Shown one piece after another: positions 40,599 through 64,000 of a stretch of 64,000 bases of DNA (the first letter of the stretch is position 1; the number at the start of each line of letters is the position of its first letter). The position numbers and the translations under genes were made by a program. A model generated the notes under the pieces. It ran no database searches. It was not told the origin of the DNA and worked only from the letters and a program-made list of their open reading frames with translations. The stretch is from assembly GCA_964606485.1 (NCBI GenBank), contig CAZSGP010000001.1, positions 161,085 to 225,084 on the forward strand. The letters run 5' to 3'. Origin of the DNA: an uncultured Planctomycetia bacterium. GTDB taxonomy: Bacteria; Omnitrophota; Gorgyraeia; 2-02-FULL-51-18.

Positions 40599-40609
40599 AA
40601 TATCCAAAA

Positions 40610-40673: not shown

Positions 40674-41909
40674 ATGCCAAGACCGCCTCGTATAGAGCTG
40701 GAAGGCGCCGTTAATTTTGTTACTTCCAGAGGAATAAACAACCAAGAAATTTTCAAAGACAAGTCCGACTTTGCTACATATTTAGAACTGGTCAAAAAAT
40801 ACAAAGACCAGCACCGCTTTAAACTTTTTGCTTATCTTTTGCTGCCTGAAAAAATCATGCTCTTGATTGAGTCCGGAGCAGGCGCCACAATTTCCGAAAT
40901 CATGCATGACCTCAACTCGCTTTACACCAAATACTTTAATGGACGCTATGGCCGTAAGGGTCATTTATTTGAAGCGCGTTTTCGTTCGGCGCTTGTCGAA
41001 AAGGCGGTGTGCTTGCCCGAGATTACGCGGTATTTGCACCGGCAGGCCCCCGATTTTTCAAATTACCTTTTTTCAACATACTCATTTTATGTTAAGGCGA
41101 TTTCAGGAACCGGCGCGATCGAGGCGATCAACGCAGAGCTTAATCTCGCCGAAGAAATTGGGGAGGCCTCCGCTATTTTTAAATCAAATTTCGGTCAAGC
41201 CAGTTATGAAGCCTATTGCGAACAGGCCACTTCCGATCAAATGAAGGAACTTGAAAAGAACCTCCGCAGTTCCAAAGTCTTTGGATCGGAAGCGTTTAAA
41301 GTGAGGGTCGAACATGAGATAGAACATCGCCGCACTCATTTGCAGGAAAAGGAGTTGGAAGCCGAGGAGGTTAAAGCCAAGGTCAAGCGTAGAACCGTTT
41401 ACTTGTGGTTAATCGGATCGCTGGTGCTGCTTGCCGGAAGTTTATCGATGTATCTTTACACGACAAAAAAAGCCGTGGAAACGCAGTACCGTAATTTGCT
41501 CACACTCAAAGAGTCAAATTTTGCTGAGCGCACAAAGTTTGAAAACCAGAGCCCGCTGGGTTTGAATGATCTGGAAGGGACTGAATGGAAGGTTGAACTC
41601 GTTTCGCCCCAAGGCTCTACGCCAGATGTCTTGCATTTTGAGGGGGGGCGGTTTTATTCGGATCACTTCGCGAAGCTAGGGTTCCGGGACACCAGCTATT
41701 TTCTAATTCCACAAGGCAACCGGAAGGTGCTTTGGCAGGCGGCCCAATCTTCCTCCAAGGGGGATAGTCTAAATTGGCAAGGGACCTGGCAGGGGGACGC
41801 CATGAAGGGCGACCTTAATTTTGTAATTTCTAACCAATCCGCTCAAACCTACTCTTTCTATAGTAAAGAGTGGTCATACGCCACAGCGCTCGTCGCGCAA
41901 AATAGTTAA
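40674..41909 (+). CDS. Fusion protein: N-terminal inactivated IS200/Y1-transposase-like (COG1943) domain, then coiled coil, a TM helix, and a C-terminal TEWKV-type extracytoplasmic domain
   Basis: Residues 1-120 match the Y1_Tnp fold pattern (AVNFVTSRG..., LFAYLLLPEKIMLLIE, YTKYFNGRYGRKGHLFEARFRSALVE), but the HuH histidines are replaced: EKIMLLIE where N-H-V-H-LLIE is expected. TM VYLWLIGSLVLLAGSLSMYLY. C-terminal domain GTEWKVELVS...LNWQGTWQGDAMKGDLNFVISNQ...QTYSFYS. Confidence 0.55.
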   Translation: MPRPPRIELEGAVNFVTSRGINNQEIFKDKSDFATYLELVKKYKDQHRFKLFAYLLLPEKIMLLIESGAGATISEIMHDLNSLYTKYFNGRYGRKGHLFEARFRSALVEKAVCLPEITRYLHRQAPDFSNYLFSTYSFYVKAISGTGAIEAINAELNLAEEIGEASAIFKSNFGQASYEAYCEQATSDQMKELEKNLRSSKVFGSEAFKVRVEHEIEHRRTHLQEKELEAEEVKAKVKRRTVYLWLIGSLVLLAGSLSMYLYTTKKAVETQYRNLLTLKESNFAERTKFENQSPLGLNDLEGTEWKVELVSPQGSTPDVLHFEGGRFYSDHFAKLGFRDTSYFLIPQGNRKVLWQAAQSSSKGDSLNWQGTWQGDAMKGDLNFVISNQSAQTYSFYSKEWSYATALVAQNS

Positions 41910-42147: not shown

Positions 42148-42903
42148 ATGACAAAAAAATCAAAGAAAGTGAATGTTAAACGTAAAAAATTAACAAACGA
42201 AGAGAGAATTTTTCAAGACTCTCTCGTTCGTAGTGCGTGGCGTCGCTATCGTGTCAATAGTGCCGCATATATTTTTGCCTCCCTAGTTCTTCTAATGAGT
42301 TTTTCCGCATACGCAGAAACCGAAGCCACTAAAGTTGCGAAGCCTGTGCCAAGCGCTAAAGCGCCATCTTCTCTTGCTAGTAAAGAGGGGGAGGCGAAGT
42401 CAGACACCACGGCCAAGAAAGCAGATCTTGCACCAGCAAAAAAAATCAAAAAAAATAGAGACGTGAGAGAGCCTTTCTCAAAATTTAAACTTCCGGATGT
42501 AAACGAAGCGGATGACAAGGAGCCAAGCACCTCCAAATATTTAAAAGGCCGGATCTCGACGATCACCGCTTACGGGATGGGAATTGTCTATGGTGGCGAT
42601 CCGACCATCGGACAGTTGGAATCCTGGAATAATTTTAATAGTAAGACCAAGATCGACGGATTTAAAAAATTCACCGATCTAAAAGAAGGGGACACCGTCG
42701 AAATAAACTACAAGCAAACGATTAAAACCCATAAAAGGATATTGGCAAGAGTTACGCTGGTTCACAAAATGACTAAGGAAGAAAGAGCGGCTGAAGAAAA
42801 GGCTTTGATGGATACGCCGGATGAACCCGTGGTTCCGGAGCCAGTCGCGGCAGTTAAACCCGTTTCAAAAGGAACGACCAATGGCGCAGGCAAAGCACTT
42901 TAA
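42148..42903 (+). CDS. Lys-rich signal-anchored/secreted protein, unknown function; 3' end overlaps the giant gene's start
   Basis: Hydrophobic segment AAYIFASLVLLMSFSAYA followed by a K/A/E-rich low-complexity stretch and a ~110-aa globular C-terminus. The stop at 42901-42903 is 20 nt after the ATG of the giant ORF. Confidence 0.4.
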   Translation: MTKKSKKVNVKRKKLTNEERIFQDSLVRSAWRRYRVNSAAYIFASLVLLMSFSAYAETEATKVAKPVPSAKAPSSLASKEGEAKSDTTAKKADLAPAKKIKKNRDVREPFSKFKLPDVNEADDKEPSTSKYLKGRISTITAYGMGIVYGGDPTIGQLESWNNFNSKTKIDGFKKFTDLKEGDTVEINYKQTIKTHKRILARVTLVHKMTKEERAAEEKALMDTPDEPVVPEPVAAVKPVSKGTTNGAGKAL

Positions 42904-45900
42904 AGCCAAATCGTTTTTTGCGACATCGCTAATTCTAGCGGGGCTGTGTTTATTTTTTACAGCGGACGCGCATGCGGTGCAAATCAAAAAAATCTATAGA
43001 GGCACGGTCAACTTCGATTTTGACGACGTGTCGCAATCGGTGGATATCGGCGCTGCGGTGGACACCACCAAATCCATTGTTCTTTTATCGCTCACCGCGG
43101 AAGGATCCTTCACCGAAGCCGATCAAAACTGTTTTTTTGCGGCGCAGTTTGAAGATGCGAGCACGCTTTACATTGACCGCGCGGGTGCTACCAAAGCGGC
43201 AGGTGTTATTTGGCAGGTGATCGAATTTAACGACGGCGTCAATGTTCAAAGAGGAATTACCAGTCTTCCCAATGGAACGGCATCGCAGTATTTAACAAAA
43301 ACCATCGATTTGCCGGCAGCGCTTACGTCAACATCCACCGCAGTGCCGATTCTTTTTACTCGCATGGCCTACACCAATACTGATTTTACGCATGTTATGA
43401 TGGTTGTTCCGACTCTCCCCAATGTCAATCAATTAACGGTTTCACGCCTTCATAATTCTAAAACTGCTAAAACGGTGACCATGGTGTGGCAGATTATCGA
43501 ATTTTTGAAAGACGCGTCCGTTGTCACCGGCACAGCGACGCTGCCTCAGCCTGGAGCGGTGACGATTGATCAAACGCTCAACGTGGATATATCAGGCATG
43601 ATCACGCTCAATAACGGAGGGCAGAACGCGCTGCTTTTTTTCTCGACGCAAGCCGGTACGGCAATAGCGGGAACGGACGCGCGCATCTTTGTTCGCGGTA
43701 GAATCACGTCGGCAACCAACTTGCAATTCATCCGAGCTTATGCCTCGAATAACGCCAATATGACGGTGCCCATCCGTTACTATGTCGTTGATTTAAAGGA
43801 ATCCACCTCTGGTAATGCGCTTGGGTATGGAAATATCTACGGCAGCACCACGGAGGGTCCTGGGATGACCCCCAACCCCAATCTTCGATCGATTTCAAGC
43901 TCCACGAACACCACACCTATTATGATCCAAATGAGCAATACCCACGGCTTTAACGCAAGCGGCGGCCAGTGGGTGACGATTAACGGCCATAATACCAACA
44001 CGAACGCGAATGGCACGTGGAAGGCAATTGTCGGCGTTAATTGCACAAACGGGACTGCCGGAGCCGGCGATTGCACGACTTCTCAGTTTGAGTTAACCGG
44101 TTCTATCGGAAACGGCGTGGGTGGCGCCACGGGTCAGGTTTGGATGAATCCACAAACTTTCGTTGTGAGCACTGCTACCAATGCGAATCCAATCGTTGTC
44201 ACGACCAGTGCTGTCAATAATTTTGAAACAGGGCAGCGTGTGCAGATTGTTGGCGCCACCGGCAACACCGCGGCCAACGGCACTTGGATTATCACAAAGT
44301 CGGGTACGGTAGGGACGCAATTTACGATTCCCGTGGCCGGAAACGGTGCTTACGGGGCAAACAGCGCCTATGTTCAGCCGGTTGATCTTGCCGTTACAAA
44401 TAAAAATATTGCCGCTTCCACGAATGCGACGCCGATTAGCATAAATATTAATGCTCATGGCTATGCGACGGGTCAGTACGTGAGAGTGGCTAACCATACA
44501 CCCAATACCGGGGCCAATGGACAGTGGTTTATCACTGTTACGGATGCTAATAACTTTACTTTAAATGGTTCGGTGGGAAATGGCGCCACTTCGGCCACTG
44601 GTACGGTGGGCGTTTCAAATATTGCGATTACGTCGTCCACGAATGCGAGTCCTATCAGTCTTAACGTAGCCAATCACGGTCTGGTTTCTGGACAGTTGAT
44701 CCGAATTTTAAGTCATGTCACCAATACAGCCGCCAACGGGGTTTGGTATGTCACCGTGACGGACGCTAATAATTTTACGCTCAATGGTTCGACTGGGAAT
44801 GGTGTGGGCGGCGCAACGGGCGTGATGTTTCCGATCCCCACGGGTTGGCGCATTGAATCCAGCGACGACTTGGTGTATCCAAACGAAATTACTTTAACGT
44901 GCACCGCGCACCCTTTTTCAAATGGGCAGCTGATCAACGTTTCTAATCACTATATTAACAACAGCACCACGAACTCCACGGCCAACGGAAACTGGATTGT
45001 TAAAAGCGCAACGGCCAACACGCTGACCTTGACCGGATCTTTGGGTACCAACGGCGACGGGTCCGGTGCGGGTGGAAGAACCGGTTGGATCACCCCCGCA
45101 AACGTGAATGCCATTCCGGCATCGAGCGTGGAGAGAACAATCGTGATTCCGTCGACGTCCGTATCGGGCAGCACGCAAAATAATACAGCCTCAGAGGCGA
45201 GGATGGCGAGCTACTTGTCGAGCCCCACCACGCTTCATTTTATGCGCGATATCACCGCTAAAACGTTCCCTGCGGATTTTAACGTCTCTATTTTTGAATT
45301 CCCGTCAATCACCCTGACCTACCCAACGACGGCGACCTCTCTAACGGTGGGAACGAGCTATCCTTTTACATGGAAAAATTCTTTGGATGTGGCCGCCCAC
45401 GATTACAAAGTCCAATTTTCGGTTGATGCGCCCCATGCGGTTTGGAATGATCTGGGTAGTGTTTGCGTCGATGGAACCCAGTCTTGTCAAGGATCCCTGC
45501 AGACGGCGCCCACGACCTTAGCGGCCGGAACAGTCAACGTGAAAATCCCTGATAATCTTGGAACCACGGCTAAGTTTAGAATTTGGGATGTGGTGGATGG
45601 CGCTACGCTAGCAGCCGTTCGGGTTAGCGACGCTTCGAACGAAAATATGAAACTGATTAGAAATTTGACGTTGACGGATCCAGTGGGCGGCGAAAATTGG
45701 ACAGTGGGGGATCTTAAAAATCTGACTTGGACTTTTAGAGGTTTTACGAATTTCGGGACGGTGAAAATAGAGTACTTCGACGGCGCGTCTTGGGCGACGG
45801 TGCCGGGTGCCGGAACATTGGCTGTGAACAACGGGGGCGGTTCGAGCGACCCGTTCGCCGGAACAGGTTCGTTTACTTGGTCCCAGATTCCCAATCTCAC

Positions 45901-57900: not shown

Positions 57901-60900
57901 TGCACTGTCCAATAACAGTTTTGCGTGGACGTTGCCGGACACGGGAATTGTTTCAACCAACGTTAAAATTAAAATGTCCGGCTCAGATTTATTGGCGGAT
58001 GTGATCTCCGAACCCTTTATCGTCAAGGGAAGCATTGTGTTAAACGCGGTACCGGGCCCTTACTTTTTAGGAGATGATGCGAATCTCACCTGGACGGCTC
58101 ACGGTGATATTGGAAATGTCAAAGTCGAATATTTTGACGGCGCGGGGTGGAACGTGGTTACAACTGCCGCTTCTCAGAACGGTCCCTACACCCTGACACT
58201 GGATGCGGTGAACAGTATCACCAAAGCAACCGACATCGCACAAGTGAGAATTTCCTCTAACGCTGACCCGGCCGTTGTTTCAACCTCGGCACAATTCCTC
58301 GTCAAGCCGCTCATTACGGTTACAAGTCCTGCGGGAGGCAATGATATTTGGGTAGTGGACGCCGTTAAAAATATTACCTGGGATAAAAAAGGTTCAAATA
58401 TTGCGAATGTTCACATTGATTATTCAACCGATAACTTTAATACAGACGTCAACAATCTCACCGGTGCTGAATTTACAAATGGAGACACGACGAATGACGG
58501 CACCGCTTCGTGGGTGGTTCCGGATAACTTGCGTTCTTCAAAAGATCTGAAAATCAGAATCCGCACATTGCCTTTGCCGGATGCGTGGGCAGTATCGGCA
58601 ACATCTGTCCCCATTCAGATTATCGGTCAGCTGACCATGGACACCCCCAATGACGTCACGGGAGTGAATTGGAGAATCAACGCGACGAATACCGTCGCGT
58701 GGACCAACACGCACGGCGCCATTCAAAACGTAAAAATTTATTATTCTTCGGATTCCGGTACAAATTGGACCGTTATCCGCAATGCCGGCGGCAGCATCGG
58801 AAACATCTCATCGGGTGCGGCTGGCCAGCAGCATACTTACGACTGGGCGATTCCCAGTGACTTTCCGATTATCAAGGATACGTTTAGGCTTAAAGTTGTC
58901 GATGCATCGAATGCCAACGTGGAGGACCCCTCAACGGCCGTTAGTTCCACTCTAGCCAATTTTACGTACACGCATCCAATCTCCTCGGATGTGTGGATCG
59001 CGGAGAACACTCAAACCATTCAATGGGCGACACCGAGCGCGGGTGTTCCGGCTAACGTCAAAGTGGAGTATTCCTATAATGACACGAACTGGTTCCCGAT
59101 CGTAGAAAACGAAGGCACGGCCAATGACGGCATTATTGTGAACGATGGCACTCAGCCTTGGGCGCTTCCGACGACTCGGTCGCTTGCCGCTAAAATTAGA
59201 ATTTCAGATCCGAATGATTCGACGAACAGCGCCATCAAGAGTCAGGCCTTTAAAATTCGTGGTGATGTCACGCTGACTGCGCCAAACTCTGCTTTGTCAT
59301 GGGGTATCGGTGTGAACAATGCGGATAATCACGCGATTACTTGGACAAAGAAAGGGGATATTGCCAACGTTAATCTTCAGTACACCAAAGATGCCTCTGC
59401 TGGAACCGTGGTTTGGGAAGATTTGGTCGACGGCACAACTCCGACGCCCAATGCCACACAAAATATTTCGACAGCGGGCTCAGGGCCCTTTACCTACAAT
59501 TGGGTCATCCCTAATATCTCCGGTATCATTACAACGAAAGCCAGGATTCGCATTATCGATGCTTCCGACTCGACGGTTTACGACGATTCGGATGTGAACT
59601 TTATCATCAAGGGTAACGTGGGTATTAGTTATCCGGATGGATCGGTGAATTATGCCGTCGGCAGTGTCGTGACGGTGACGGGAACGATTTTCGGTGACAT
59701 CCCACAGATTCGCTTAAGTTACAACAAGGGTGGAACGTGGTACGGTTTGAACGGAGTAGTGGGTGGTGCGCTAGTGGATTCCGCCGGAACAACCTACTCT
59801 TATGATTGGACGATTCCCGACGCGATCGGCAACGGCATTTACGTGCGCGCAGAAGATTCGAACAACAACACCGTCGGTAGCAATTCTCCGACATTTGGCA
59901 TTAAAGGCAATGTGGCGATCACGGCGCCAACGACTATCGGCACGACAGGGTCTCCGTTTATTGCCAACACCGCTCAGAGCATTGTCTGGGATCGCAACGG
60001 TACGATTGGAAATCTCACTTTTTCATATAGCGTGAATAACGGAGCCTACACCGCCGTTGCCGGTGCGGGTGCCGTGCCGTCGCCATTATTAACGGGCAAT
60101 AGTTTTTCTTGGACCGTCCCTGACACCGACATTGTTTCAACCAACGTTAAAATTAAAATGTCCGGCGCCGATCTCTTGGCGGATGTGATTTCTGAGCCCT
60201 TTATTGTGAAGGGCACCATTGCGCTTAACGCGGTGACAGGGCCTTATACGCTTGGGGATGATGCCAATCTGACTTGGTCTGCTCACGGAGATATTGGGCT
60301 TGTGAAAGTGGAATACTTCGACGGCACCGGTTGGAACGTGATCACAACCACGGCTCCGCAGAATGGGCCCTATACGCTGACACTGGATGCGGTCAATAGC
60401 ATCACCAAAGCCAGCAATATTGCACAAGTTCGCGTTTCCGCGGCCTCCGATCCGGTCGTAGTTTCAACCTCGGGGCAATTCATGGTGAAACCGTTTATTG
60501 TCATTACGGCACCCACCGGTGGAAATGATATTTGGGTGGTTGACGCAGCGAAAAATATTACCTGGACAAAAAAAGGTTCGAATATTGCGAATGTGCGCAT
60601 TGATTATTCATCCGATAACTTTACAAACTCAGATCTTTTAACCGGCGCCGAATTTACGAACGGAGACACGCCCAATGATGGAACGGTGTCTTGGGATGTG
60701 CCGGATAATATTCGTTCAGCCAAAGATTTAAAAATCCGCATTCGCACGCTTCCGCTTTCCGACACGTGGGCGGTGAGTGCGAACTCTGCCCCATTCCAAA
60801 TTATTGGCCAGCTCACCATGGACACGCCGGATGACACGACACCCGTGGTGTGGAGAATTAATTCAACCAATACCGTTGCTTGGACCAACACGCACGGCGC

Positions 60901-63900
60901 GGTTCAGCAGGTAAAATTATGGTATTCGTCAAACGGCGACTCCGGCCCGTGGACTCAACTTCCCGGAACGGGCAATATCAACTCCGGTGCGGCCGGACAA
61001 CAGCATACGTATGACTGGGCAATTCCCGGAACATTCCCAATCATCAAAGATAATTTCCGTATCAAAGTCAGTGACGCTGCCAATGCAAACGTTTTTGACC
61101 AGTCCACAGCGGCGAGCTCCACCATCGCAACGGTAACTTTTGCGCATCCAATCTCATCCGATGTTTGGGTAGCGGAAAACGCGCACAATATTCAATGGAC
61201 GACTCCTCAGGCGGGTGTTCCGACCACTGTAAAACTAGAATACAACGTCGGCGGCGGTTGGGTTTTGGTCCCAGAAAATGACGGAACGGTTAATGATGGT
61301 ATTGTAACGAATACTGGAACGCGGTCGTGGACGTTGCCGACCACAAGATCTTTGGCGGCAAAAGTCCGCATTTCCGATCCGAACGATGCCAATAGTATTG
61401 TCGAAAGCGATCCGTTTAAAATCCGCGGTGATCTGACTGTGACTTCTCCGACGCTCGGCTCCGAAGCGTGGGTGGTGATGACGACTCACGACATTACGTG
61501 GACGAAAAAGGGAAATATTTCCGCAGCGAACTTGCAAATCACAAAAGACGCTACCGTTGGAACGCCAGTTTGGGAAAATTTAGTGGATGGAGATGCCAAC
61601 ACCACGCAAAATATTTCACTTCCGGGAACGGGCCCATATACTTTTACGTGGAGAGTTCCAAATGATCCCACCATCATGAGCTCCAAAGCAAGAATTCGCG
61701 TGGTGGATGCTTCCGATCCAGCGGTCTACGATGATTCGGACACCAATTTTACAATCCAGGGCCGATTGACATTGAACGCAGCGGTGCCCAATCCACTTTA
61801 TGTGGCTGATATCTATTCCATTGCCTGGACTCGCGAGGGCACGATTCCAACGGTGAAGGTGGAGTACTCGGTGAATGGCGCACCGTTTCAATATTGCTTG
61901 GATGCTGTGACGGCACCGGCGGACAGTGTTGTGGCCAATTCCTTTAACTGGAAAGTTCCCGACAGCATCAACACCAATGTGATCTTGCGCATCAGCAATA
62001 CCGATGCGACAAAGCCGACGATCGTTGCTTCTTCCAACACCTTCGCCATCAAAGGCCAAATCGCTTTGGATGCGCCTACGGCAGGTCTACTCTGGAAAGT
62101 GGATGACTCCAATGCCATTCAATGGACACCCACGGGTACGATGGGAACGGTCAAGCTCGAGTATTCGAAAGATGGATTTGCGACAGCGGGCATTCCGGTC
62201 ACCGGCCCCGCCAATGAAAGTGCTGCTGCGCTTTCCGCGGGTGTGAGCGGCGTGCAACAAAGTTTCACCTGGAAAATTCCTAATGACATCAACGACACAG
62301 TGACCGTGAAAATTTCACCCAACGTAGTAACTCAGGCTGCTGCAGTCGAGTCCGGTGTATTTAAAATTGTCGGTGCTTATAAATTGCTGACTCCCAACGG
62401 TGGTGGAGGACAATTTTTTGAAGTGGATGGCTCGACTCCGATCACATGGGAAAAACACGGAACGGTGGGCGCGATCCGTATTGATTATTCGACGAATGGG
62501 TTTTTAAATGAAACTCAGACGATTACGATTGCAGACTCCATTGCGAATCCCGGATTGGTTCAGCCGGGCGACTTGAGTTACTCATGGACCATTCCAAACT
62601 CAATCGGTGGAAGCGTGCGCGTCAGAATCTCGGATCCGTCTGTAGGGGTTTCCACAGTTGCGGACGGTTCTGACAACGATTTTGCAATCCGCGGAAAGAT
62701 TGATGTTTCGGCTCCTGCGGGCGGCGAAGTGTGGCTGATTGGAAGCGATCATACTATTCAGTGGGCGAAACATGGAACGATGCCGGCTGTAAAGGTGGAG
62801 TATTCGATCGGCGGCGGCGCGTATTCTTACGTGAAAGATGCGGGCGGAGTCGACGCGACCAGTGTCGCCGGAAACTCTTATTCATGGCGCATTCCGGATC
62901 AAAAAACATTGAACGGCGCTCGAATCAAAGTGACCAATCTATCGGACCAAACCAATGTTTACACTATCAGCAATCCTTTAACGATTCGCGGTGGTTTTAG
63001 CTGGCAGTTTCCGAATGTCGCAGGCCAGGTCTTTAAAGTGGGGACCACACAAAACCTGACGTGGACAACGTTCGGTACGATCACGAACGCGTCTCTTGAA
63101 TATTCGAATAATAGCGGATTTTCGTACCAGTCGGTGAAGGATGCGGGCGGTGCGGACGCAACCGGATTTATCAACACCGGCAGTTTCAACTGGGTGATTC
63201 CCAACGATATCTCAAAAGACGTCTACATTCGCATTAAAGACGCTTCAGATCCTGACGCCAAAGATATCACGCCGAAGATTAAAATTGCGGGCACGCTTTT
63301 TGTGGATCAGCCCGTGGGAACGTCGCGGTGGGGCGTCGGATCCACGCAAAGCATTATTTGGCATTCCACCGGATCCATTCAGAATATGAAAATTGAATAT
63401 TCAACCGATGGCGGATCGAACTGGGTGGTTCCGGCTATTCAGGATCTGGTTCCCGTGAGCAATGGAACACAGGCTTGGCTTATTCCGAACGCCGTCACGG
63501 CAAATGCCATGATTCGCATCAAGGACGTGATTTCAGATAGCGGTTCCGATCCGGTTACTTCCAATCCGTTCAAGATCACGGGTACCTTCTCATTTCTTGC
63601 GCCGCTTGCCGCTGATGTGTGGCCGGTAACGACAGGAGAAATTGCCAACACGACACGAAATATTGTGTGGTCCACTCAGGGTAATGTTACCTCGATTAAT
63701 TTACGCTACTCACCAACTGGCGCAGCGCCTTGGACACTGATCAACACCGCTGGTCCAATTGCGGATGGTGGGAATGGCGGTTCTTATACCTGGACGGTTC
63801 CCGATAGCATCAGCGCTTCGACAAAAATTTTAATTGAAGATAACGCCGATAACCAGACCAACACTTCTTCTGGAACGTTCACCGTTCGCGGGGATTTGAA

Positions 63901-64000
63901 CATCACATCTCCGGTTGGCGGTGAAAAGTGGGGAGTGGGCGATATCAAAAATATCACGTGGCAGAGAAACGGATCTATTTCCGAAGTGTTTATTTATTAC
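42881..64000 (+). CDS. Giant secreted repeat protein (adhesin / S-layer-like), 5' part only: more than 7040 codons, open to the window end
   Basis: ATG at 42881 in a frame with no stop to 64000. Signal peptide MAQAKHFKAKSFFATSLILAGLCLFFTADAHA. Thr/Ser/Asn/Gly/Val-rich. Dozens of ~100-aa domains share the pattern W(T/S)..G.I.NVKI.YS.DGG.W..I...N.G...W.VPD....V.I.-, resembling Ig-like/beta-sandwich (Kre9/KNH-like) repeats. Confidence 0.85.
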   Translation, partial: MAQAKHFKAKSFFATSLILAGLCLFFTADAHAVQIKKIYRGTVNFDFDDVSQSVDIGAAVDTTKSIVLLSLTAEGSFTEADQNCFFAAQFEDASTLYIDRAGATKAAGVIWQVIEFNDGVNVQRGITSLPNGTASQYLTKTIDLPAALTSTSTAVPILFTRMAYTNTDFTHVMMVVPTLPNVNQLTVSRLHNSKTAKTVTMVWQIIEFLKDASVVTGTATLPQPGAVTIDQTLNVDISGMITLNNGGQNALLFFSTQAGTAIAGTDARIFVRGRITSATNLQFIRAYASNNANMTVPIRYYVVDLKESTSGNALGYGNIYGSTTEGPGMTPNPNLRSISSSTNTTPIMIQMSNTHGFNASGGQWVTINGHNTNTNANGTWKAIVGVNCTNGTAGAGDCTTSQFELTGSIGNGVGGATGQVWMNPQTFVVSTATNANPIVVTTSAVNNFETGQRVQIVGATGNTAANGTWIITKSGTVGTQFTIPVAGNGAYGANSAYVQPVDLAVTNKNIAASTNATPISININAHGYATGQYVRVANHTPNTGANGQWFITVTDANNFTLNGSVGNGATSATGTVGVSNIAITSSTNASPISLNVANHGLVSGQLIRILSHVTNTAANGVWYVTVTDANNFTLNGSTGNGVGGATGVMFPIPTGWRIESSDDLVYPNEITLTCTAHPFSNGQLINVSNHYINNSTTNSTANGNWIVKSATANTLTLTGSLGTNGDGSGAGGRTGWITPANVNAIPASSVERTIVIPSTSVSGSTQNNTASEARMASYLSSPTTLHFMRDITAKTFPADFNVSIFEFPSITLTYPTTATSLTVGTSYPFTWKNSLDVAAHDYKVQFSVDAPHAVWNDLGSVCVDGTQSCQGSLQTAPTTLAAGTVNVKIPDNLGTTAKFRIWDVVDGATLAAVRVSDASNENMKLIRNLTLTDPVGGENWTVGDLKNLTWTFRGFTNFGTVKIEYFDGASWATVPGAGTLAVNNGGGSSDPFAGTGSFTWSQIPNLTGTNQALVKFRIVANDSAIDGTAFTSTSGNLTVRRGLTLTSLNSGTYNDQTPIDITWDYLGEKTADAFDWGNLKFEFCNNGVCAQPSDWTSLPITTGPTTYLADQAVNINETGTPPFSGAGKYVWTIPTGFTTNGAQAKIRISSASDPSIIQTSSSFFTINPTVRLLTPSSTGIVMYRGGSSYDITWTADASIANVKLDYATDGVTFSNPIAASVASSGVGTNTYSWTVPNNVGTNVKVKIGNADTIGIYPPGSFTAVSANPFTIKGSIDGITPNSGTVPYAAPSVSVTWNSHGALGNVKIFLSSDGSTSNFPTQLNSGSVAGGNDTSSPNSFSWDLTSPSIPPGTYVIRVQEVDGGGTPIGDVYGDSSATFKVVGAIAITNPPVNPSPPTWVVNQNDATTLLTWTKNPGSLGNVKVEYSIDDGATWPGGAQIISASNSGTTQAFTVPASAVSASYMKFKVSLVSDPTNVQATSDRVKARGTLQVVLPNATTDILKVDQSYNITWTSKDFLNNDLNWDNVDISYSFDGTIYTPITGVNGVPAIPAAYSWTPDPAVQSDTVKIKVQGHTYTDVADTSDNFFKIKPNMVILTHNGGGAPIWYVDAYSAAASITWETHAKAGTVNNVNLYYCKGALADDCAGSGTWNAIPGTAGLSNINAYSWSVADAIGPYTRVKVEPLVNGATDATLADISNNDFTIRGAFEFVQPAAAAILRVGATPTIQWTNHGTMPNAPTPNISIKYTLNGSVYTDIDGSQPLTNAAAYGGHTYNTWTIPDAARGAVGLKIQWEGDAANVNATRAVSIKPDIVINSPNGLTYHIGDTPVIEFTHTGRTSDTFKVRYSIDGGTNWSDAGASPTVTSVAPNTPYTFSPAPAFTIPNDTGIVVPNQFKIRVELVGDETDVKKDSAVNTILGKLAPVSAPAGPWTAGVTTPNITWTPQGITTVKIEYATDGVTFSNVINNTATGNNYTWPAIPGSAVSDNVKVRVTAQDANDSVTSVTTGSAVTILPQLVLTAPNGPLARYVGDALPITWNSTGAGNIKIEYTSDADQVTPTWTTLPGYGTVDSTPQSASNASVPNVISNHVKFRITNLNANPALVVTSESSIEFPIKGSLVLNSLTAAGLSYTLGDQPDVSWTPNGSIGDITVEYYNGSSWSTLTTTAPESGPFSLLLDAANGITTATNLAKVRISATNGSTAVIASANAFIVKPLISVTAPSAGNDVWRVDDSNAVGTERFITWTKKGANIANVKIEYSTDNFSSDINEIYASTANDGTQSWSASAGATSDVPDVINPSPNIKIRVSTLPTSDPWAVSATSSVFRIIGQLRMDTPDDATPAKWTINSTKTIGWTNLHGTIDNVKIYYSTAGDGGPWTILRNSGGTIATVPSGGPGAHTYDWAIPDDFPIVKDDFRLKVVDADNSNVEDASTAASSTLSKFTFVHPITTDVWVAETTHTIQWTTAQAGVPANVKIEVNTGSGWTNLVENEGTANDGIIVNDGSQPWLLSATRSLAAQVRISDPSNSTDSVTLSQTFKIRGDLTVQIPSDGTQSWSVAASNADTHAITWVKKGNIANVNLQMTKDFTAGTPVWENLADGTTPTPQVTQNLDVTGSANGPYTFTWVVPNIAGITTTKAAIRVVDASDGTVLDDSDNIFTIKGNVALTAPNGGGTYAVGDSITISGTLFGPITKIRLFYTKLGVNYNLLGVAGQYSTMDVGGASFTTSSNLVPNLIGNGITMTVQDDSNTTVQDVSDASFGFKGNVGITAPTTAGTTGSPFIANTSQDIVWDRFGSIGNMTFYYSVNDGPYTAVAGAGAVPSPSASGNTFSWTVPDDSIVSNNVKIKMTGPDLYNDVISEPFIVKGSIAINALAGPYVLGDDVNLTWTAHGDIGVVKVEYFDGTGWNVITSSAPQNGPYTLTLDTATGITKATNIAQVRVSANADPAVVSTSGQFMVKPLITVTAPASGNDIWRVDDSNTVGTERLITWTKKGSNIANVKIQYSSDNFVSDINDIYATTANDGSQSWSAALGATSDVPDNIRTSKDLKVRVLTLPTSDPWAVSASSAVFQIIGQLTMDTPNDVTGVKWRINSTNTVAWTNTHGSIDDVKIYYSTDSGTNWTIIRNSGGNIASVPSGSAGQQHTYDWAIPDDFPIIKDTFRLKVVDFGNANVEDPSTALSSTLSKFVFTHPISTDVWVAENTQTIQWTTAQAGVPTNVKVEYNVGGGWTVISENEGTANDGIIVNDGTQPWTLPSTRSLAAQVRISDPDDVNSITNSQAFKIRGDLTMTAPNTGTESWGVGINNGDTHAITWTKKGNIANINLQMTKDVTAGTPVWENLVDGTTPTPQVTQNIDVTGSANGPFTFNWVIPNVAGITTTKAAIRVIDASDGTVLDDSDAMFTIKGTVHLSNPNGGGSYAVGSVITVDGTVFGPITNVRLYYTKSGTDYGLNEVVGGQVVAVTGSNFTKQWTVPDRIGTGITVRVEDASNSVVQDPSDAGFGIKGNVAITAPTTAGTTGTPFIANTAQNIIWDKFGSIGNMTFTYSVNDGPYTAVSGAGAVPSPSSTNNTFSWTVPDTGIVSTNVKIKMSGSDLLNDVISEPFIVKGSIVLNAVTGPYALGDDANLTWTAHGDIGFVKVEYFDGTGWNVVTTTAPQNGPYTITLDSGASITKATDIAQVRISSAADPAVVSTSGQFMVKPVVAITSPAGGNDIWVVDAVKNITWNKKGSNIANVKIEYSSDNFAADINPLTGAEFTNGDTTNDGTASWIVPDNLRSSKDLKIRIRTLATADPWAVTAVSVPFQIIGQLTMDTPDDSTAVKWRINSTNTIAWTNTHGAIQNVKIYYSSAGDGGPWTQLPGTGNIGSGAAQQQHTYDWAIPDDFPIIKDTFRLKVVDATNANVEDASTAVSSTLAKFTISHPISSDIWVAENTQTIQWATAQAGVPANVKVEYNVGAGWVPINENEGTANDGIIVNDGTQPWLLTATRSLAAQVRISDPSNSDSIVNSQSFKIRGSLTMTAPNTGTESWGVGVNDADTHAITWTKKGNIANVNLQLTKDFTAGTPVWEDLVDGTSTPQNTQNIDVTGSANGPFAFNWVIPNAAGITTTKAAIRVIDASDGTVLDDSDVMFTIKGNVHLSNPNGGGSYAVGSVITVDGSVFGPIANVRLYYVKSGTDYGLNEVVGGQIVAVAGASFTKQWTVPDRIGTGVTIRVEDAANSIVQDTSDAGFGIKGNVVITAPTTAGTTGSPFIANTAQNIVWDRNGTIGNLTFYYSVNDGAYTAVSGAGAVPSPLLTGNSFSWTVPDTGIVSTNVKIKMSGSDLLADVISEPFIVKGTIVLNAVTGPYTLGDDANLTWTAHGDIGVVKVEYFDGTGWNVVTTSAPQNGPYTLTLDSGASITKATNIAQVRVSANADPVVVSTSGQFMVKPFVSITSPAGGNDIWVVDATKNVTWSKKGSNIANVHIDYSSDNFSADVNNLTGVEFTNGDTTNDGTAQWIVPDNLRSSKDLKIRIRTLPLADPWAISATSVPFQIIGQLTMDTPDDSTAVKWRINSTNTIAWTNTHGAIQNVKIYYSSAGDGGPWTQLPGTGNIGSGAAQQQHTYDWAIPDDFPIIKDTFRLKVVDATNANVEDASTAVSSTLAKFTISHPISSDIWVAENTQTIQWATAQAGVPANVKIEYSYDNTNWFSIAENEGTANDGIIVNDGTQPWALPATRALAAHIRISDPNDVSSIVSSDAFKIRGDLTIDIPSDGTQSWGIGINNADTHTIQWTKKGSIANVNLQMTKDASVGSPVWEDLVDGTTPAGQATQNIDVTGSANGPYTFNWVIPNTAGMTTTKAKIRVVDASDGTVLDDSDSMFTIKGNVHLTGPNGGGNYAVGSAVTVNGSVFGPITSVRLYYTKSGTDYGLNEVVGGDVVAVSGSSFTRQWTIPDRIGSGITVRVEDSTNSLIQDTSDAGFNIKGNVVISAPTTAGTTGTPFIANASHNIIWDRNGSIGNMTFYYNVNDGAWTAVSGAGAVPSPALSNNSFAWTLPDTGIVSTNVKIKMSGSDLLADVISEPFIVKGSIVLNAVPGPYFLGDDANLTWTAHGDIGNVKVEYFDGAGWNVVTTAASQNGPYTLTLDAVNSITKATDIAQVRISSNADPAVVSTSAQFLVKPLITVTSPAGGNDIWVVDAVKNITWDKKGSNIANVHIDYSTDNFNTDVNNLTGAEFTNGDTTNDGTASWVVPDNLRSSKDLKIRIRTLPLPDAWAVSATSVPIQIIGQLTMDTPNDVTGVNWRINATNTVAWTNTHGAIQNVKIYYSSDSGTNWTVIRNAGGSIGNISSGAAGQQHTYDWAIPSDFPIIKDTFRLKVVDASNANVEDPSTAVSSTLANFTYTHPISSDVWIAENTQTIQWATPSAGVPANVKVEYSYNDTNWFPIVENEGTANDGIIVNDGTQPWALPTTRSLAAKIRISDPNDSTNSAIKSQAFKIRGDVTLTAPNSALSWGIGVNNADNHAITWTKKGDIANVNLQYTKDASAGTVVWEDLVDGTTPTPNATQNISTAGSGPFTYNWVIPNISGIITTKARIRIIDASDSTVYDDSDVNFIIKGNVGISYPDGSVNYAVGSVVTVTGTIFGDIPQIRLSYNKGGTWYGLNGVVGGALVDSAGTTYSYDWTIPDAIGNGIYVRAEDSNNNTVGSNSPTFGIKGNVAITAPTTIGTTGSPFIANTAQSIVWDRNGTIGNLTFSYSVNNGAYTAVAGAGAVPSPLLTGNSFSWTVPDTDIVSTNVKIKMSGADLLADVISEPFIVKGTIALNAVTGPYTLGDDANLTWSAHGDIGLVKVEYFDGTGWNVITTTAPQNGPYTLTLDAVNSITKASNIAQVRVSAASDPVVVSTSGQFMVKPFIVITAPTGGNDIWVVDAAKNITWTKKGSNIANVRIDYSSDNFTNSDLLTGAEFTNGDTPNDGTVSWDVPDNIRSAKDLKIRIRTLPLSDTWAVSANSAPFQIIGQLTMDTPDDTTPVVWRINSTNTVAWTNTHGAVQQVKLWYSSNGDSGPWTQLPGTGNINSGAAGQQHTYDWAIPGTFPIIKDNFRIKVSDAANANVFDQSTAASSTIATVTFAHPISSDVWVAENAHNIQWTTPQAGVPTTVKLEYNVGGGWVLVPENDGTVNDGIVTNTGTRSWTLPTTRSLAAKVRISDPNDANSIVESDPFKIRGDLTVTSPTLGSEAWVVMTTHDITWTKKGNISAANLQITKDATVGTPVWENLVDGDANTTQNISLPGTGPYTFTWRVPNDPTIMSSKARIRVVDASDPAVYDDSDTNFTIQGRLTLNAAVPNPLYVADIYSIAWTREGTIPTVKVEYSVNGAPFQYCLDAVTAPADSVVANSFNWKVPDSINTNVILRISNTDATKPTIVASSNTFAIKGQIALDAPTAGLLWKVDDSNAIQWTPTGTMGTVKLEYSKDGFATAGIPVTGPANESAAALSAGVSGVQQSFTWKIPNDINDTVTVKISPNVVTQAAAVESGVFKIVGAYKLLTPNGGGGQFFEVDGSTPITWEKHGTVGAIRIDYSTNGFLNETQTITIADSIANPGLVQPGDLSYSWTIPNSIGGSVRVRISDPSVGVSTVADGSDNDFAIRGKIDVSAPAGGEVWLIGSDHTIQWAKHGTMPAVKVEYSIGGGAYSYVKDAGGVDATSVAGNSYSWRIPDQKTLNGARIKVTNLSDQTNVYTISNPLTIRGGFSWQFPNVAGQVFKVGTTQNLTWTTFGTITNASLEYSNNSGFSYQSVKDAGGADATGFINTGSFNWVIPNDISKDVYIRIKDASDPDAKDITPKIKIAGTLFVDQPVGTSRWGVGSTQSIIWHSTGSIQNMKIEYSTDGGSNWVVPAIQDLVPVSNGTQAWLIPNAVTANAMIRIKDVISDSGSDPVTSNPFKITGTFSFLAPLAADVWPVTTGEIANTTRNIVWSTQGNVTSINLRYSPTGAAPWTLINTAGPIADGGNGGSYTWTVPDSISASTKILIEDNADNQTNTSSGTFTVRGDLNITSPVGGEKWGVGDIKNITWQRNGSISEVFIYY
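43900..45130 (+). repeat. Five tandem ~75-aa 'NT-ANG-W' repeats within the giant ORF
   Basis: The recurring pattern P-I-(V/S)...H..(A/E)-(T/S)-GQ.(V/I).(I/V)...(T/N)-NT-(A/G)-ANG-(T/Q/V)-W-(I/F/Y)-(I/V)-T..(D)-(A)-N-(N)-FTL-(N/T)-GS-(V/T)-GNG read 5 times, e.g. TAANGTWIITKSG, TGANGQWFITVTDANNFTLNGSVGNG, TAANGVWYVTVTDANNFTLNGSTGNG. Confidence 0.6.
49200..61750 (+). repeat. Tandem array of ~2.2-kb supermodules (7 beta-sandwich domains A-G each; five full units plus flanking partial units) inside the giant ORF
   Basis: Domain-A anchor (VKP.I.VT.P..GNDIW.VD...ITW.KKG.NIANV.I.YS.DNF) recurs at 49501, 51724, 53941, 56118, 58300 and 60486, giving periods of 2223, 2217, 2177, 2182 and 2186 nt. Domain B stretches at about 54271-54690 and 56431-56860 are nucleotide-identical. 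Confidence 0.8.

What the first reader, a model, noticed from the sequence alone, without database searches (positions are those of the whole stretch)
42881..64000. Giant (>7000 aa, incomplete) Sec-signal-bearing repeat protein made of ~100-aa beta-sandwich domains
One ORF stays open for 21.1 kb to the window edge. It starts with a classical signal peptide followed by dozens of Ig-like domains. Proteins of this size are rare. Giant Gram-negative adhesins usually carry C-terminal T1SS signals or autotransporter barrels, whereas this one has an N-terminal Sec signal and sits beside a secretin module. Its Thr/Ser/Asn-rich composition and the neighbouring glycan/GT-C genes suggest a heavily glycosylated surface fibre or S-layer-like protein.
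Basis: partly seen in the sequence, partly recalled or inferred. Interest (0 to 1): 0.8.

Follow-up and report, generated by a model that had tools for sequence, protein, structure and literature searches.

The report
Giant secretin-linked Ig-repeat surface fibre
This is a real gene for a secreted protein of more than 7,000 residues, built from about 60 antibody-like domains with a lectin-like tip; it belongs to a family of giant fibres that tiny Omnitrophota bacteria encode inside a secretion/pilus-machine gene cluster, most likely to grab other cells or surfaces.

Summary
From ATG 42881 the frame stays open for 7,040 codons to the window edge; the other five frames have 169-511 stops.

Architecture: a cleavable Sec signal peptide, a three-module lectin-like head, five phage-type FCCH barrels, then 59 complete and one partial ~100-aa Ig-like domains. 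Forty of these form about 5.7 copies of a 7-domain supermodule. Copy divergence (dN/dS about 0.1, dS saturated) and an identical independent assembly of the first 10 kb rule out an artefact.

The only relatives with a taxonomic label are Omnitrophota. Relatives place this gene type in a conserved locus: ExeA-like ATPase, GspC-like protein, secretin and TPR protein upstream; a membrane-anchored base, an F-type ATPase cluster and GspE/F/G downstream. One 125-kb contig shows the whole arrangement.

Best reading: a 0.2-0.3 µm adhesin fibre, tethered to the inner membrane and passed through the co-encoded secretin. The tether and the secretin route are inferred.

Giant ORFs next to T2SS/T4P genes are already known in Omnitrophota. 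This family and locus arrangement were not found in the literature searched.

The parts
42881..64000 (+). Giant ORF, 7,040 codons visible (741 kDa, pI 4.7), 3' end beyond the window. Estimated full length about 8.7 kaa by collinearity with the L002 homologue.
42881..42976 (+). Sec-type signal peptide (aa 1-32) with an AHA|VQ cleavage site. Not a lipobox and not a prepilin signal.
   Evidence: the junction is conserved in P0079, L003, L004 and P0178
42977..43855 (+). Head (aa 33-325): three ~90-aa beta-sandwich modules, each ending in a W-Q-V-I-E-F motif, modelled as a pseudo-threefold assembly. Lectin / phage receptor-binding-like.
43889..45076 (+). Five ~70-aa FCCH-type beta-barrel repeats (aa 337-419, 428-496, 509-575, 582-648, 664-732), homologous to PF16190-bearing phage baseplate/fibre proteins.
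45113..45325 (+). Fourth head-type module (aa ~745-815, ending ...NVSIFEFPS), forming the junction to the shaft.
   Evidence: head HMM i-E 1.5e-4; sequence inspection
45341..49237 (+). Shaft, part 1: Ig-like domains D1-D12. Each is unique (best identity to any other domain 29-39 %).
49259..61780 (+). Shaft, part 2: domains D13-D52, about 5.7 tandem copies of a 7-domain supermodule (period 2,172-2,223 nt). Whole copies are 58-84 % identical at the aa level; adjacent domains are only 15-37 % identical. dN/dS is 0.07-0.12.
54326..54690 (+). First copy of the longest exact internal repeat (365 bp); the second copy is at 56504-56868. Probably a gene-conversion tract, and the only place where copy number could be mis-assembled.
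   Evidence: the Logan contig ends near 54179
61799..64000 (+). Shaft, part 3: unique Ig-like domains D53-D60 (the last is cut by the window edge). Collinear, at 51 % identity over 807 aa, with an Omnitrophota homologue that continues for 1,633 aa to a TM-anchored base.
42148..42903 (+). 251-aa protein with an N-terminal signal-anchor. It overlaps the giant gene's start by 23 nt. Its ~90-aa C-terminal domain is conserved in the gene immediately upstream of the giant gene in L003, L004 and L009. Candidate partner or chaperone.
40674..41909 (+). 411-aa membrane protein: an N-terminal Y1-transposase-like domain with a degenerate HUH motif, one TM helix, and a periplasmic domain. Syntenic in L003 and L004 (30-31 % identical) and in L010 and L012 (by Pfam hit and position only).
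39947..40537 (+). 196-aa secreted protein. Its domain resembles the periplasmic domain of the Y1-like protein (26 % identity, E 4e-5).
38783..39925 (+). 380-aa signal-anchored coiled-coil + TPR protein (MshN / PilW / Tgl-like).
36987..38786 (+). Secretin, 599 aa (Secretin + Secretin_N). Scores just below the PilQ cutoff and below the GspD cutoff. 53 % identical to the L003 secretin.
36277..36990 (+). GspC/GspB-like protein, 237 aa (T2SSC, 45 bits against a cutoff of 27).
35447..36319 (+). AAA_22 ATPase, 290 aa, of the ExeA/GspA/MshM type (TIGR03015-like but below its cutoff). Preceded by an 84-aa MerR-family gene at 35196-35450.

Best explanation
The ORF encodes a giant, non-enzymatic cell-surface adhesin fibre of an Omnitrophota-type bacterium.

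Shown:
- A Sec signal peptide.
- A distal N-terminal tip made of a pseudo-trimeric lectin-like head and five FCCH barrels.
- A shaft of at least 60 Ig-like domains, about 0.2-0.27 µm if extended.

Inferred from relatives:
- The C-terminus ends in a conserved base that is tethered to the cytoplasmic membrane by one TM helix. The base is either fused to the fibre, as in the closest homologue, or supplied by an adjacent separate base protein.
- The gene is a fixed component of a T2SS/MSHA-like type-IV-filament locus. Upstream lie an ExeA-like ATPase, a GspC-like protein, a secretin and a TPR protein. Downstream lie an F-type ATPase cluster and GspE(MshEN), GspF and GspG.

Proposed mechanism: Sec exports the chain N-terminus first. 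The domains fold in the periplasm. The head and shaft pass through the outer membrane via the co-encoded secretin while the base stays in the inner membrane. This presents a glycan-binding tip a cell-diameter away, for attachment to prey, hosts or particles.
For: ORF, signal peptide and domains:
- ORF and signal peptide.
- 59 complete and 1 partial Ig-like domains; model pLDDT 82; best fold matches are FN3/Ig.

Tip:
- The FCCH repeats align to PF16190-bearing phage proteins at 36-47 % identity.

Base:
- The window's last 807 aa are collinear, at 51 % identity, with L002. L002 ends in an 804-aa base with exactly one TM helix.
- The base family is found only in sequences labelled Omnitrophota.
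- In L010 and L011 the base is a separate adjacent gene with its own signal peptide and the TM helix.

Locus:
- 5' synteny (secretin, TPR, Y1-like, small protein, then the giant gene) is seen in the window, L003, L004, L010, L011 and L012.
- 3' synteny (the F-ATPase cluster directly after the giant/base gene in seven loci; GspE/GspF follow where the contig continues, and GspG in L007).
- Both flanks appear on one contig in L011.
- Head and ATPase cluster are linked on one contig in L009.

Other:
- Purifying selection on the repeats (dN/dS about 0.1).
- No Pfam enzymatic domain above cutoff.
- Literature context: Omnitrophota giant ORFs are proposed adhesins next to T2SS/T4P-like loci (10.1101/2023.11.21.568195; PMC10066038).
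Against: - The window ends before the C-terminus, so the membrane tether is inferred from a 51 %-identical homologue.
- The family has three C-terminal variants. One complete member (P0111/L009) has neither a TM helix nor an adjacent base gene.
- As far as I know, a membrane-tethered polypeptide threaded through a secretin has no experimental precedent. T2SSs normally release folded cargo.
- A terminator-like hairpin (40563-40595) and a promoter-like site (40610-40638) suggest the secretin module and the giant gene may be separate transcription units.
- The organism is assigned only indirectly, through homologues.
Confidence: 0.6

Rival explanations
1. It is a released type II secretion substrate. 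The fibre is exported by Sec, pushed out through the secretin, and then works free or loosely attached, for example as a matrix or aggregation fibre, rather than tethered to the inner membrane.
For: - A Sec signal plus embedding in a T2SS-like locus is the classic signature of T2SS cargo.
- Several complete family members end without a TM helix: P0107, P0108 and P0111.
- The window's own C-terminus is unseen.
Against: - The closest homologue (L002, 51 % identity, collinear) has the TM base fused to the fibre.
- In L010 and L011, the two TM-less members whose downstream gene was examined, a TM-anchored base protein homologous to the fused part is encoded immediately downstream. This fusion/fission pattern argues for physical docking. 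P0111 (L009) has no such gene.
Confidence: 0.17
2. It is a heavily glycosylated S-layer-like coat protein, serviced by the neighbouring glycan/GT-C genes.
For: - Thr/Ser/Asn-rich, acidic composition.
- A 30-kb glycan cluster, including a PMT_2 (GT-C) gene, lies upstream.
- L009 has an unannotated 528-aa protein, hydrophobic and apparently polytopic by inspection, just upstream of its fibre gene.
Against: - Sequon count equals the compositional expectation (110 against 110.5 +/- 9.4).
- No glycan cluster appears in the sequence available upstream (2.4-10 kb) of the gene in the relatives' loci.
- No SLH or other S-layer domain was found.
- The tip, shaft and base architecture is that of a fibre. 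O-glycosylation cannot be excluded from sequence alone.
Confidence: 0.07
3. It is the moving 'leg' or tether of a motor apparatus. The membrane base couples the fibre to the adjacent F-type ATPase cluster, which lacks an a-subunit, and to the GspE-type ATPase. The machine would produce gliding, retraction or prey-reeling, by analogy with Mycoplasma mobile Gli349/Gli521 and its F1-like ATPase.
For: - The F-ATPase cluster directly follows the fibre or base gene in seven loci.
- No a-subunit gene lies in the cluster, and gamma, epsilon and b/delta are divergent.
- Seymour et al. (PMC10066038) relate the Omnitrophota T4aP-linked F-ATPases to the Mycoplasma gliding type.
Against: - NCBIfam scores the alpha and beta subunits above the canonical atpA and atpD cutoffs (515 > 484; 555 > 463). 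They score well below the Mycoplasma gliding-ATPase models (390 < 600; 414 < 850).
- The cluster may simply be the cell's ATP synthase.
- The cytoplasmic tail of the base is only about 30-45 residues, and no interaction evidence exists.
Confidence: 0.1
4. It is an assembly artefact: a much shorter repeat gene inflated or chimerised by the assembler.
For: - Short-read assemblies break in this gene (the Logan contig ends at codon 3,766).
- A 365-bp exact repeat exists.
Against: - Supermodule copies are only 61-79 % identical at the DNA level, with saturated dS and dN/dS about 0.1.
- There are no stops in 7,040 codons.
- An independent assembly is identical over 10 kb.
- Complete relatives of 4.2-6.9 kaa exist on other contigs.
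Confidence: 0.02

Closest known systems
Giant ORFs of Omnitrophota (Archaeovorin-type and Dockerin-type; West-Roberts et al. 2023, bioRxiv 10.1101/2023.11.21.568195; Seymour et al. 2023, PMC10066038; Nielsen & Lui 2026, bioRxiv 10.64898/2026.06.07.730766)
   Same: - Same phylum, by homologues.
- Very long, mostly unannotated, and predicted extracellular.
- Assemblies break in these genes.
- Located next to T2SS/T4P-like genes.
- Proposed role in attachment to other cells.
- The SP+TM topology class and the 'tandem-repeat scaffold' class have been described.
   Different: - Those proteins exceed 10-30 kaa, with many TM helices, SecA_DEAD, C39/S8 peptidase, dockerin/TSP3 or enzyme domains. They follow a complete T2SS-like locus and precede pilZ and sugar-import genes.
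- This one has no TM helix beyond the signal peptide in 7,040 aa, no enzyme, SecA or dockerin domain, and a uniform Ig-like shaft.
- It sits between the secretin module and an F-ATPase + GspE/F/G module.
T1SS giant RTX adhesins retained in an outer-membrane pore (LapA, SiiE, MpIBP; my own knowledge)
   Same: - A poly-Ig-like rod hundreds of nm long with ligand-binding modules at the distal end.
- The fibre is held at the cell surface while occupying its own export channel.
   Different: - Those have no Sec signal, a C-terminal RTX/T1SS signal, an N-terminal retention plug, and an ABC/MFP/TolC exporter.
- This one has an N-terminal Sec signal, zero RTX motifs, a C-terminal membrane base, and a secretin.
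Type II secretion substrates that stay on the cell (pullulanase PulA; GlyGly-CTERM/rhombosortase cargo such as VesB; my own knowledge)
   Same: - Sec signal.
- Gene embedded in or beside the T2SS locus.
- A C-terminal TM segment in some cargo.
   Different: - No lipobox and no GlyGly-CTERM motif.
- The tail after the TM helix is 30-45 residues.
- The cargo is 10-50 times larger.
Phage tail-fibre/tailspike tips, R-type pyocin fibres, and type IVb tip minor pilins TcpB/CofB (H-type-lectin-like domains)
   Same: - FCCH repeats are shared with phage baseplate/fibre proteins.
   Different: - Those are true homotrimers. Here three modules in one chain form a pseudo-trimer.
- There is no pilin N-terminus.
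- The similarity is structural and modest.
Mycoplasma mobile gliding legs Gli349/Gli521 with a type-2 F1-like ATPase (cited in PMC10066038)
   Same: Giant membrane-anchored surface proteins encoded next to an F1-type ATPase cluster.
   Different: - The ATPase alpha and beta subunits here score as canonical atpA/atpD, not as the gliding type.
- The organism is diderm and has a secretin.
- There is no sequence similarity between the fibres.

Membership tests
T1SS / RTX giant adhesin (LapA/SiiE type) | RTX nonapeptide (GGxGxD) repeats and a C-terminal T1SS signal, with no N-terminal Sec signal | tested here: not met
   There are 0 GGxGxD motifs in 7,040 aa and 0 in the L002 homologue. A clear Sec signal peptide is present.
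T1SS / RTX giant adhesin (LapA/SiiE type) | Adjacent HlyB/HlyD/TolC-type exporter | tested here: not met
   The nearby ABC system is ABC-2/GldG-like plus DUF4340, not a T1SS. The relatives' flanks show a secretin and GspE/F/G.
Autotransporter / inverse autotransporter (T5SS) | A C- or N-terminal 12-16-stranded beta-barrel domain | tested here: not met
   No Pfam barrel family was hit in the visible 7,040 aa. The relatives' C-termini are helix-rich by inspection and carry one TM helix or none. The window's own C-terminus is unseen.
T9SS cargo | C-terminal Por_Secre_tail (PF18962) sorting domain | tested here: not met
   It is absent from the one fibre C-terminus scanned against Pfam (L002). It is present only on small stand-alone head homologues, P0085 and P0086.
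Sortase (LPXTG) or PEP-CTERM/exosortase cargo | An LPXTG or PEP motif immediately before a C-terminal TM helix and a short basic tail | tested here: not met
   No LPxTG lies in the last 120 aa of L002 or of six other anchors, and a bare PEP tripeptide occurs in only one of them (P0148). The tails are 30-45 aa long. The upstream ATPase resembles TIGR03015 but falls below its cutoff (175 < 324.5).
Type II secretion system substrate | N-terminal Sec (or Tat) signal peptide | tested here: met
Type II secretion system substrate | Genetic linkage to GspC/D/E/F/G genes | tested here: met
   GspC-like and secretin genes lie in the window. GspG passes its equivalog cutoff, and GspE and GspF fall just below theirs, in a relative's locus. 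The whole locus is on one contig in L011. The window's own downstream region is unseen.
Type II secretion system substrate | Secretion depends on the T2SS | not testable with these tools
   This needs genetics or biochemistry in an uncultured lineage.
Type IV pilin / minor-pilin tip adhesin | Class III (prepilin) signal with G|F/M-x-x-x-E and an N-terminal hydrophobic helix | tested here: not met
   The protein has a class I signal ending AHA|V. Three distant head homologues have a pilin-like N-terminus by eye, but Pfam does not confirm this.
Omnitrophota Archaeovorin-/Dockerin-type giant proteins | Numerous TM helices, SecA_DEAD domain, dockerin/TSP3 or multi-enzyme content, more than 25-30 kaa | tested here: not met
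   No Pfam family passes its cutoff, and there is one hydrophobic segment in 7,040 aa.
Pfam Ig-like families Kre9_KNH (PF10342) / Big_7 (PF17957) | A score above the Pfam gathering threshold | tested here: not met
   Kre9_KNH is hit by 6 of 59 domains (best E 0.006) and Big_7 by 5 of 59 (best E 1.5e-5). The one Big_7 bit score shown was below the cutoff (17.7 < 24.1). The domain forms its own large family, with 17,334 cluster representatives.
E1_FCCH (PF16190) repeats | A match to the Pfam model | tested here: inconclusive
   The window's repeats do not hit PF16190 directly. They do align at 36-47 % identity (E down to 3e-32) to the PF16190 region of P0003.
S-layer protein | SLH or another S-layer anchoring or lattice domain | tested here: not met
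   There are no such Pfam or NCBIfam hits. Lattice formation is not testable here.

The most novel reading that the evidence does not exclude
The fibre, its membrane base, the F-type ATPase cluster that lacks an a-subunit, and the T2SS/MSHA-like machine form one apparatus. A single giant polypeptide would be threaded through a secretin while tethered to the inner membrane. It would be actively extended, retracted or stepped by the adjacent ATPases. That would be a new kind of prey-capture or gliding device in diderm nanobacteria, functionally parallel to type IV pili or to the Mycoplasma mobile legs.
Probability: 0.12. Interest if true: 0.9.

Novelty: new variant of a known kind. Interest (0 to 1): 0.58.

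Why it matters
Omnitrophota are abundant, ultra-small and mostly uncultured bacteria thought to live on other cells. Their giant ORFs are a recognised puzzle with few annotated domains.

This locus gives one family of them a concrete anatomy that can be tested:
- a lectin-like tip;
- an Ig-like shaft as long as the cell itself;
- a membrane base that is fused in some genomes and a separate gene in others;
- a fixed genomic position between a secretin module and an F-ATPase/GspE-F-G module.

This leads to specific experiments: glycan arrays on the head, fibre-base docking, and cryo-ET of secretin sites. It also raises a mechanistic question that I am not aware has been answered for any secretin: how does a diderm cell display an inner-membrane-tethered megadalton fibre?

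The repeat domain also defines a very large family that Pfam does not model (17,334 cluster representatives).

Tried and rejected
- **Tandem Repeats Finder** found nothing, because the period (~2.2 kb) exceeds its limit. I used anchors, the repeat finder and an HMM instead.
- **Pfam and NCBIfam** on the giant protein: nothing above cutoff.
- **PDB sequence profile** of the repeat domain: nothing significant. Foldseek against the PDB: no hit at E <= 1e-3.
- **Finding the window's own full-length protein or C-terminus.** The protein is absent from the homology database. The representative-genome scan returned only a relative. Contig look-ups reach at most 10 kb past the last complete gene. The C-terminus therefore remains inferred.
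- **P0079** (orthologous N-terminal fragment): no contig on record.
- **Glycosylation:** sequon enrichment tested and rejected.
- **Programmed frameshift.** I considered one at the 32-nt overlap between the giant gene and the downstream ORF in L010 and L011. I rejected it because that ORF has its own start and its own signal peptide.
- **Mycoplasma-type gliding ATPase:** not supported by the NCBIfam cutoffs.
- **PilX/pseudopilin N-terminus** in head homologues P0087, P0098 and P0100: seen by eye, but Pfam did not confirm it in P0098 or P0100; P0087 was not scanned.
- **Viral fold library for the head:** only weak single-module matches.
- **Rfam:** no RNA family in the window.
Full report
**1.

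- Translating 42881-64000 gives 7,040 codons without a stop. The other five frames contain 169-511 stops.
- From base composition, the chance of such an open frame is about 1e-149.
- The frame opens after a stop at 42806-42808. ATG 42881 has an AAAGGAA Shine-Dalgarno about 8 nt upstream, and the only other in-frame start is 20 codons earlier.
- The N-terminus (MAQAKHFKAKS-FFATSLILAGLCLFFT-ADAHA|VQIK) is a textbook Sec signal peptide. It is the only hydrophobic segment in the whole visible protein.
- The visible part weighs 741 kDa and is acidic (pI 4.7). It is rich in Thr, Ser, Asn and Gly, and poor in Lys and Glu, compared with neighbouring proteins.

**2. It is not an artefact**

- An HMM built iteratively from one repeat tiles residues 821-7040 with 59 complete domains and one partial domain.
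- Domains D13-D52 form about 5.7 tandem copies of a seven-domain supermodule, with a period of 2,172-2,223 nt.
- Equivalent domains in different copies are 51-100 % identical. Neighbouring domains are only 15-37 % identical, as expected for a poly-domain rod that must avoid misfolding between neighbours.
- Whole supermodule copies are 61-79 % identical at the DNA level. dS is saturated (1-3) and dN/dS is 0.07-0.12. These are old duplicates under purifying selection.
- The longest exact repeat is 365 bp (54326 and 56504), in register with the period. An assembly slip there would add or remove one in-frame unit only.
- An independent Logan assembly (SRR12487046_619) is identical over the first 10,023 nt and breaks at about 54179, next to a 53-bp exact repeat.
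- The window comes from a 546-kb NCBI contig.

**3. Anatomy**

- *Head.* After the signal peptide come three ~90-aa beta-sandwich modules (aa 33-325), each ending in W-Q-V-I-E-F.
  - Homologues are mostly ~390-aa stand-alone secreted proteins with four such modules, from several phyla. A few are N-termini of orthologous giant genes.
  - As a three-module unit it matches single-chain C1q/TNF trimers over 185-197 residues.
  - A viral fold library gave only weak single-module matches to tail-fibre tips.
- *FCCH repeats.* Five ~70-aa repeats follow (aa 337-732). They align at 36-47 % identity to the PF16190 (E1_FCCH) region of phage baseplate/fibre-like proteins, but they do not hit that Pfam model themselves.
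- *Junction.* A fourth head-type module (aa ~745-815) leads into the shaft.
- *Shaft domain.* The model is an all-beta sandwich (pLDDT 82). Its best structural neighbours are FN3/Ig domains, at TM about 0.5 and with no significant E-value. No solved structure matches by sequence.
  - Scanning each domain against Pfam gives only scattered sub-threshold hits: Kre9_KNH 6 of 59, Big_7 5 of 59.
  - An exhaustive profile search shows the domain is a very large, unmodelled family. It has 17,334 cluster representatives at E <= 1e-3, and the top hits are 4-6.9-kaa proteins with 40-58 copies.

**4. Organism and C-terminus**

- The only relative in 185,579 representative genomes is a Candidatus Omnitrophota MAG (L002, JBAYGD010000006.1).
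- Window residues 6257-7032 align collinearly to it at 51 % identity over 807 aa. L002 then continues for 1,633 aa: eight more Ig-like domains and an 804-aa non-repeat base. By inspection the base has a prealbumin-like module and helix-rich stretches. It has exactly one TM helix and a ~30-aa tail. By analogy the window protein would be about 8.7 kaa.
- The base region has homologues only in sequences labelled Omnitrophota/Omnitrophica, including Ca. Duberdicusella.
- Among the 150 best shaft-family proteins, 18 carry the head at the N-terminus, always behind a signal peptide. About 40 carry the base at the C-terminus.
- There are three C-terminal types:
  - the full base with a TM helix and a conserved FFFTW(Q/H) juxtamembrane motif;
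  - proteins that stop at profile position ~551 ('...PVVHVIYE');
  - one complete 4,226-aa protein (P0111) that stops after the first base module.
- In the two ~551-type loci examined (L010 and L011), the next gene is a 283/308-aa protein with its own signal peptide. It matches base positions 556-774, including the TM helix, at E about 1e-85. The membrane base is therefore fused in some genomes and separate in others. That pattern argues for physical docking of the fibre onto the base.
- No RTX, LPXTG-type or PEP-CTERM signal is present.

**5. Genomic context**

- *In the window.* The giant gene is preceded by:
  - a MerR-family gene;
  - an ExeA/GspA/MshM-like AAA_22 ATPase;
  - a GspC/B-like protein;
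  - a secretin (PilQ score just below cutoff, GspD lower);
  - a coiled-coil + TPR protein;
  - a 196-aa secreted protein;
  - a 411-aa membrane protein with a Y1-transposase-like N-terminal domain;
  - a 251-aa protein that overlaps the giant gene's start by 23 nt.
- *5' arrangement in relatives.* It recurs in L003 (secretin 53 % identical, Y1-like 30 %), L004, L010, L011 and L012. The small upstream protein shares a conserved ~90-aa C-terminal domain in four loci.
- *3' arrangement in relatives.* In seven loci (L002, L006-L011) the fibre or base gene is followed directly by the start of an F-type ATPase cluster, complete (epsilon, c, b/delta, alpha, gamma, beta) where the contig allows. No a-subunit gene lies in the cluster. 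Where the contig continues, it is followed by a GspE/PilB-type ATPase with MshEN (plus PilZ in L006 and L007) and GspF; a Peptidase_MA_2 gene follows in L006 and L007, and pseudopilin genes in L007.
- NCBIfam calls the pseudopilin GspG above its equivalog cutoff. It calls the ATPase alpha and beta subunits canonical atpA and atpD, not the Mycoplasma gliding type.
- L011, a 125-kb contig, shows secretin module, 6,457-aa fibre, base, ATPase cluster and GspE/GspF on one molecule. L009 links a head-bearing fibre to the ATPase cluster.
- The 30 kb upstream of the ABC-2/GldG-like exporter is a generic LPS/polysaccharide cluster: a WecA-like transferase, GT2/GT4/GT9 enzymes, six FkbM methyltransferases, a carbamoyltransferase and a PMT_2 gene. 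No such cluster appears in the sequence available upstream (2.4-10 kb) of the gene in the relatives' loci.

**6. Interpretation**

- *Shown.* This is a Sec-exported, non-enzymatic poly-Ig fibre with a distinct N-terminal tip. It belongs to an Omnitrophota family that is a fixed part of a T2SS/MSHA-like locus.
- *Inferred.* The C-terminus is tethered to the inner membrane through the base. The rod, about 206-266 nm for the 59 visible domains at 3.5-4.5 nm each, crosses the outer membrane through the co-encoded secretin. It would present a lectin-like tip for attachment.
- *Caveats.* The window's own C-terminus and downstream genes are unseen. One family member lacks any base. A terminator-like hairpin and a promoter-like site between the secretin module and the Y1-like gene suggest separate transcription units. 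The lectin analogy rests on modest structural scores.

**7. Comparison with what is known**

- Seymour et al. (PMC10066038) report ORFs over 20 kb in most Omnitrophota classes. [quoted passage not shown]
- West-Roberts et al. (10.1101/2023.11.21.568195) describe giant genes preceded by T2SS-like loci. Their two types are rich in TM helices, SecA or enzyme domains, or dockerins, and are followed by pilZ and sugar-import genes. They do not mention an ATPase cluster.
- Nielsen & Lui (10.64898/2026.06.07.730766) catalogue proteins of 10 kaa and above, including 'tandem-repeat scaffolds' and an SP+TM class.
- The general kind is therefore known. In the literature I could search, I did not find this family, its tip-shaft-base anatomy, the fused or split base, or its fixed place between the secretin module and the F-ATPase/GspE-F-G module.
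- I rate it a new variant of a known kind.

**8.

- Heavy glycosylation and an S-layer are not supported. Sequons match the compositional expectation (110 against 110.5 +/- 9.4), and no S-layer domain is present.
- O-glycosylation cannot be excluded from sequence alone.

Noticed in passing
window 40674-41909; also L003 7976-9316, L004 1609-2817, L010 8245-9510, L012 6043-7329: A ~400-450-aa membrane protein is conserved just upstream of the giant gene in five loci. It has an N-terminal Y1 (IS200/REP-type) transposase-like domain, one TM helix and a periplasmic domain. The HUH motif is degenerate (window PEKIMLL; L003 PEELHLC), and the catalytic Tyr is Phe in L003. It looks like a domesticated, non-catalytic domain rather than a mobile element. 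It may be a regulator.
   Followed up: partly
window 42148-42903; L003 9123-9932; L004 2703-3452; L009 2074-2442: The small protein immediately upstream of the giant gene has a conserved ~90-aa C-terminal domain and no Pfam or NCBIfam hit. In the window it overlaps the giant gene's start codon by 23 nt, which suggests translational coupling. It is a candidate chaperone or partner.
   Followed up: partly
L010 30702-31553 and L011 28664-29590, compared with L002 ~10100-12535: The membrane base shows gene fusion and fission. It is fused to the fibre in L002-type genes. In L010 and L011 it is a separate 283/308-aa gene with its own signal peptide, and in both loci that gene overlaps the fibre gene by exactly 32 nt in the +1 frame.
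   Followed up: yes
L002 12501-17541; L006 2876-7994; L007 3936-8891; L008 5683-8376; L009 15246-18874; L010 31555-36665; L011 29849-35622: An F-type ATPase cluster follows directly after the fibre or base gene and precedes GspE/GspF. It is complete (epsilon, c, b/delta, alpha, gamma, beta) where the contig allows and cut short by the contig end in L008 and L009. No a-subunit gene lies in the cluster. Alpha and beta pass the canonical atpA and atpD cutoffs, while gamma, epsilon and b/delta are divergent. The reason for its fixed position is unexplained.
   Followed up: partly
window 54326-54690 and 56504-56868: A 365-bp exact repeat lies between adjacent supermodule copies that are otherwise about 78 % identical at the DNA level. 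Domains D29 and D36 are 100 % identical. This looks like a recent gene-conversion tract, and a short-read assembly breaks just upstream of it.
   Followed up: yes
window 39947-40537 and 40674-41909 (C-terminal part); L003 3452-4156: The 196-aa secreted protein shares a domain (around a 'TEWKV' motif) with the periplasmic part of the Y1-like protein (26 % identity, E 4e-5). The L003 234-aa protein matches the same periplasmic part of the window's Y1-like protein (22 % identity, E 3e-9).
   Followed up: partly
window 40563-40638: A strong terminator-like hairpin (15-bp stem plus a T-run, 40563-40595) is followed by a near-consensus promoter-like site (TTGACA-17-TATGAT, 40610-40638). The pair lies between the secretin module and the Y1-like gene and may mark an operon boundary.
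   Followed up: no
window 1-35059: A 30-kb polysaccharide/LPS cluster is unusually rich in FkbM-family methyltransferases (six copies). It also carries a carbamoyltransferase, two GT9 heptosyltransferase-like genes and a PMT_2 (GT-C) gene. Two large ORFs have no Pfam hit (17076-18500 and 24151-25662). The cluster is followed by an ABC ATPase, a fused ABC-2/GldG-like permease (815 aa) and a DUF4340 protein.
   Followed up: partly
P0082, P0085, P0086, P0087, P0098, P0100 (head homologues): The head module family also occurs outside giant proteins. Most examples are ~390-aa secreted proteins with four modules. Some have T9SS sorting tails (P0085, P0086), one is fused to an S24/S26 peptidase (P0082), and three have a long hydrophobic N-terminus that looks pilin/PilX-like by eye. 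Pfam did not confirm the pilin-like reading in the two that were scanned (P0098, P0100).
   Followed up: partly
L003 5390-7249; L011 5797-7383: Some relatives carry an additional 528-619-aa multi-Ig protein (Big_7, He_PIG, Big_9, CarboxypepD_reg) between the secretin module and the Y1-like gene. The window has no counterpart.
   Followed up: no
window 1-64000: No Rfam family reaches its gathering score anywhere in the window. All the main ORFs (one per locus in the >=100-aa list) are on the + strand, with positive GC skew throughout.
   Followed up: no
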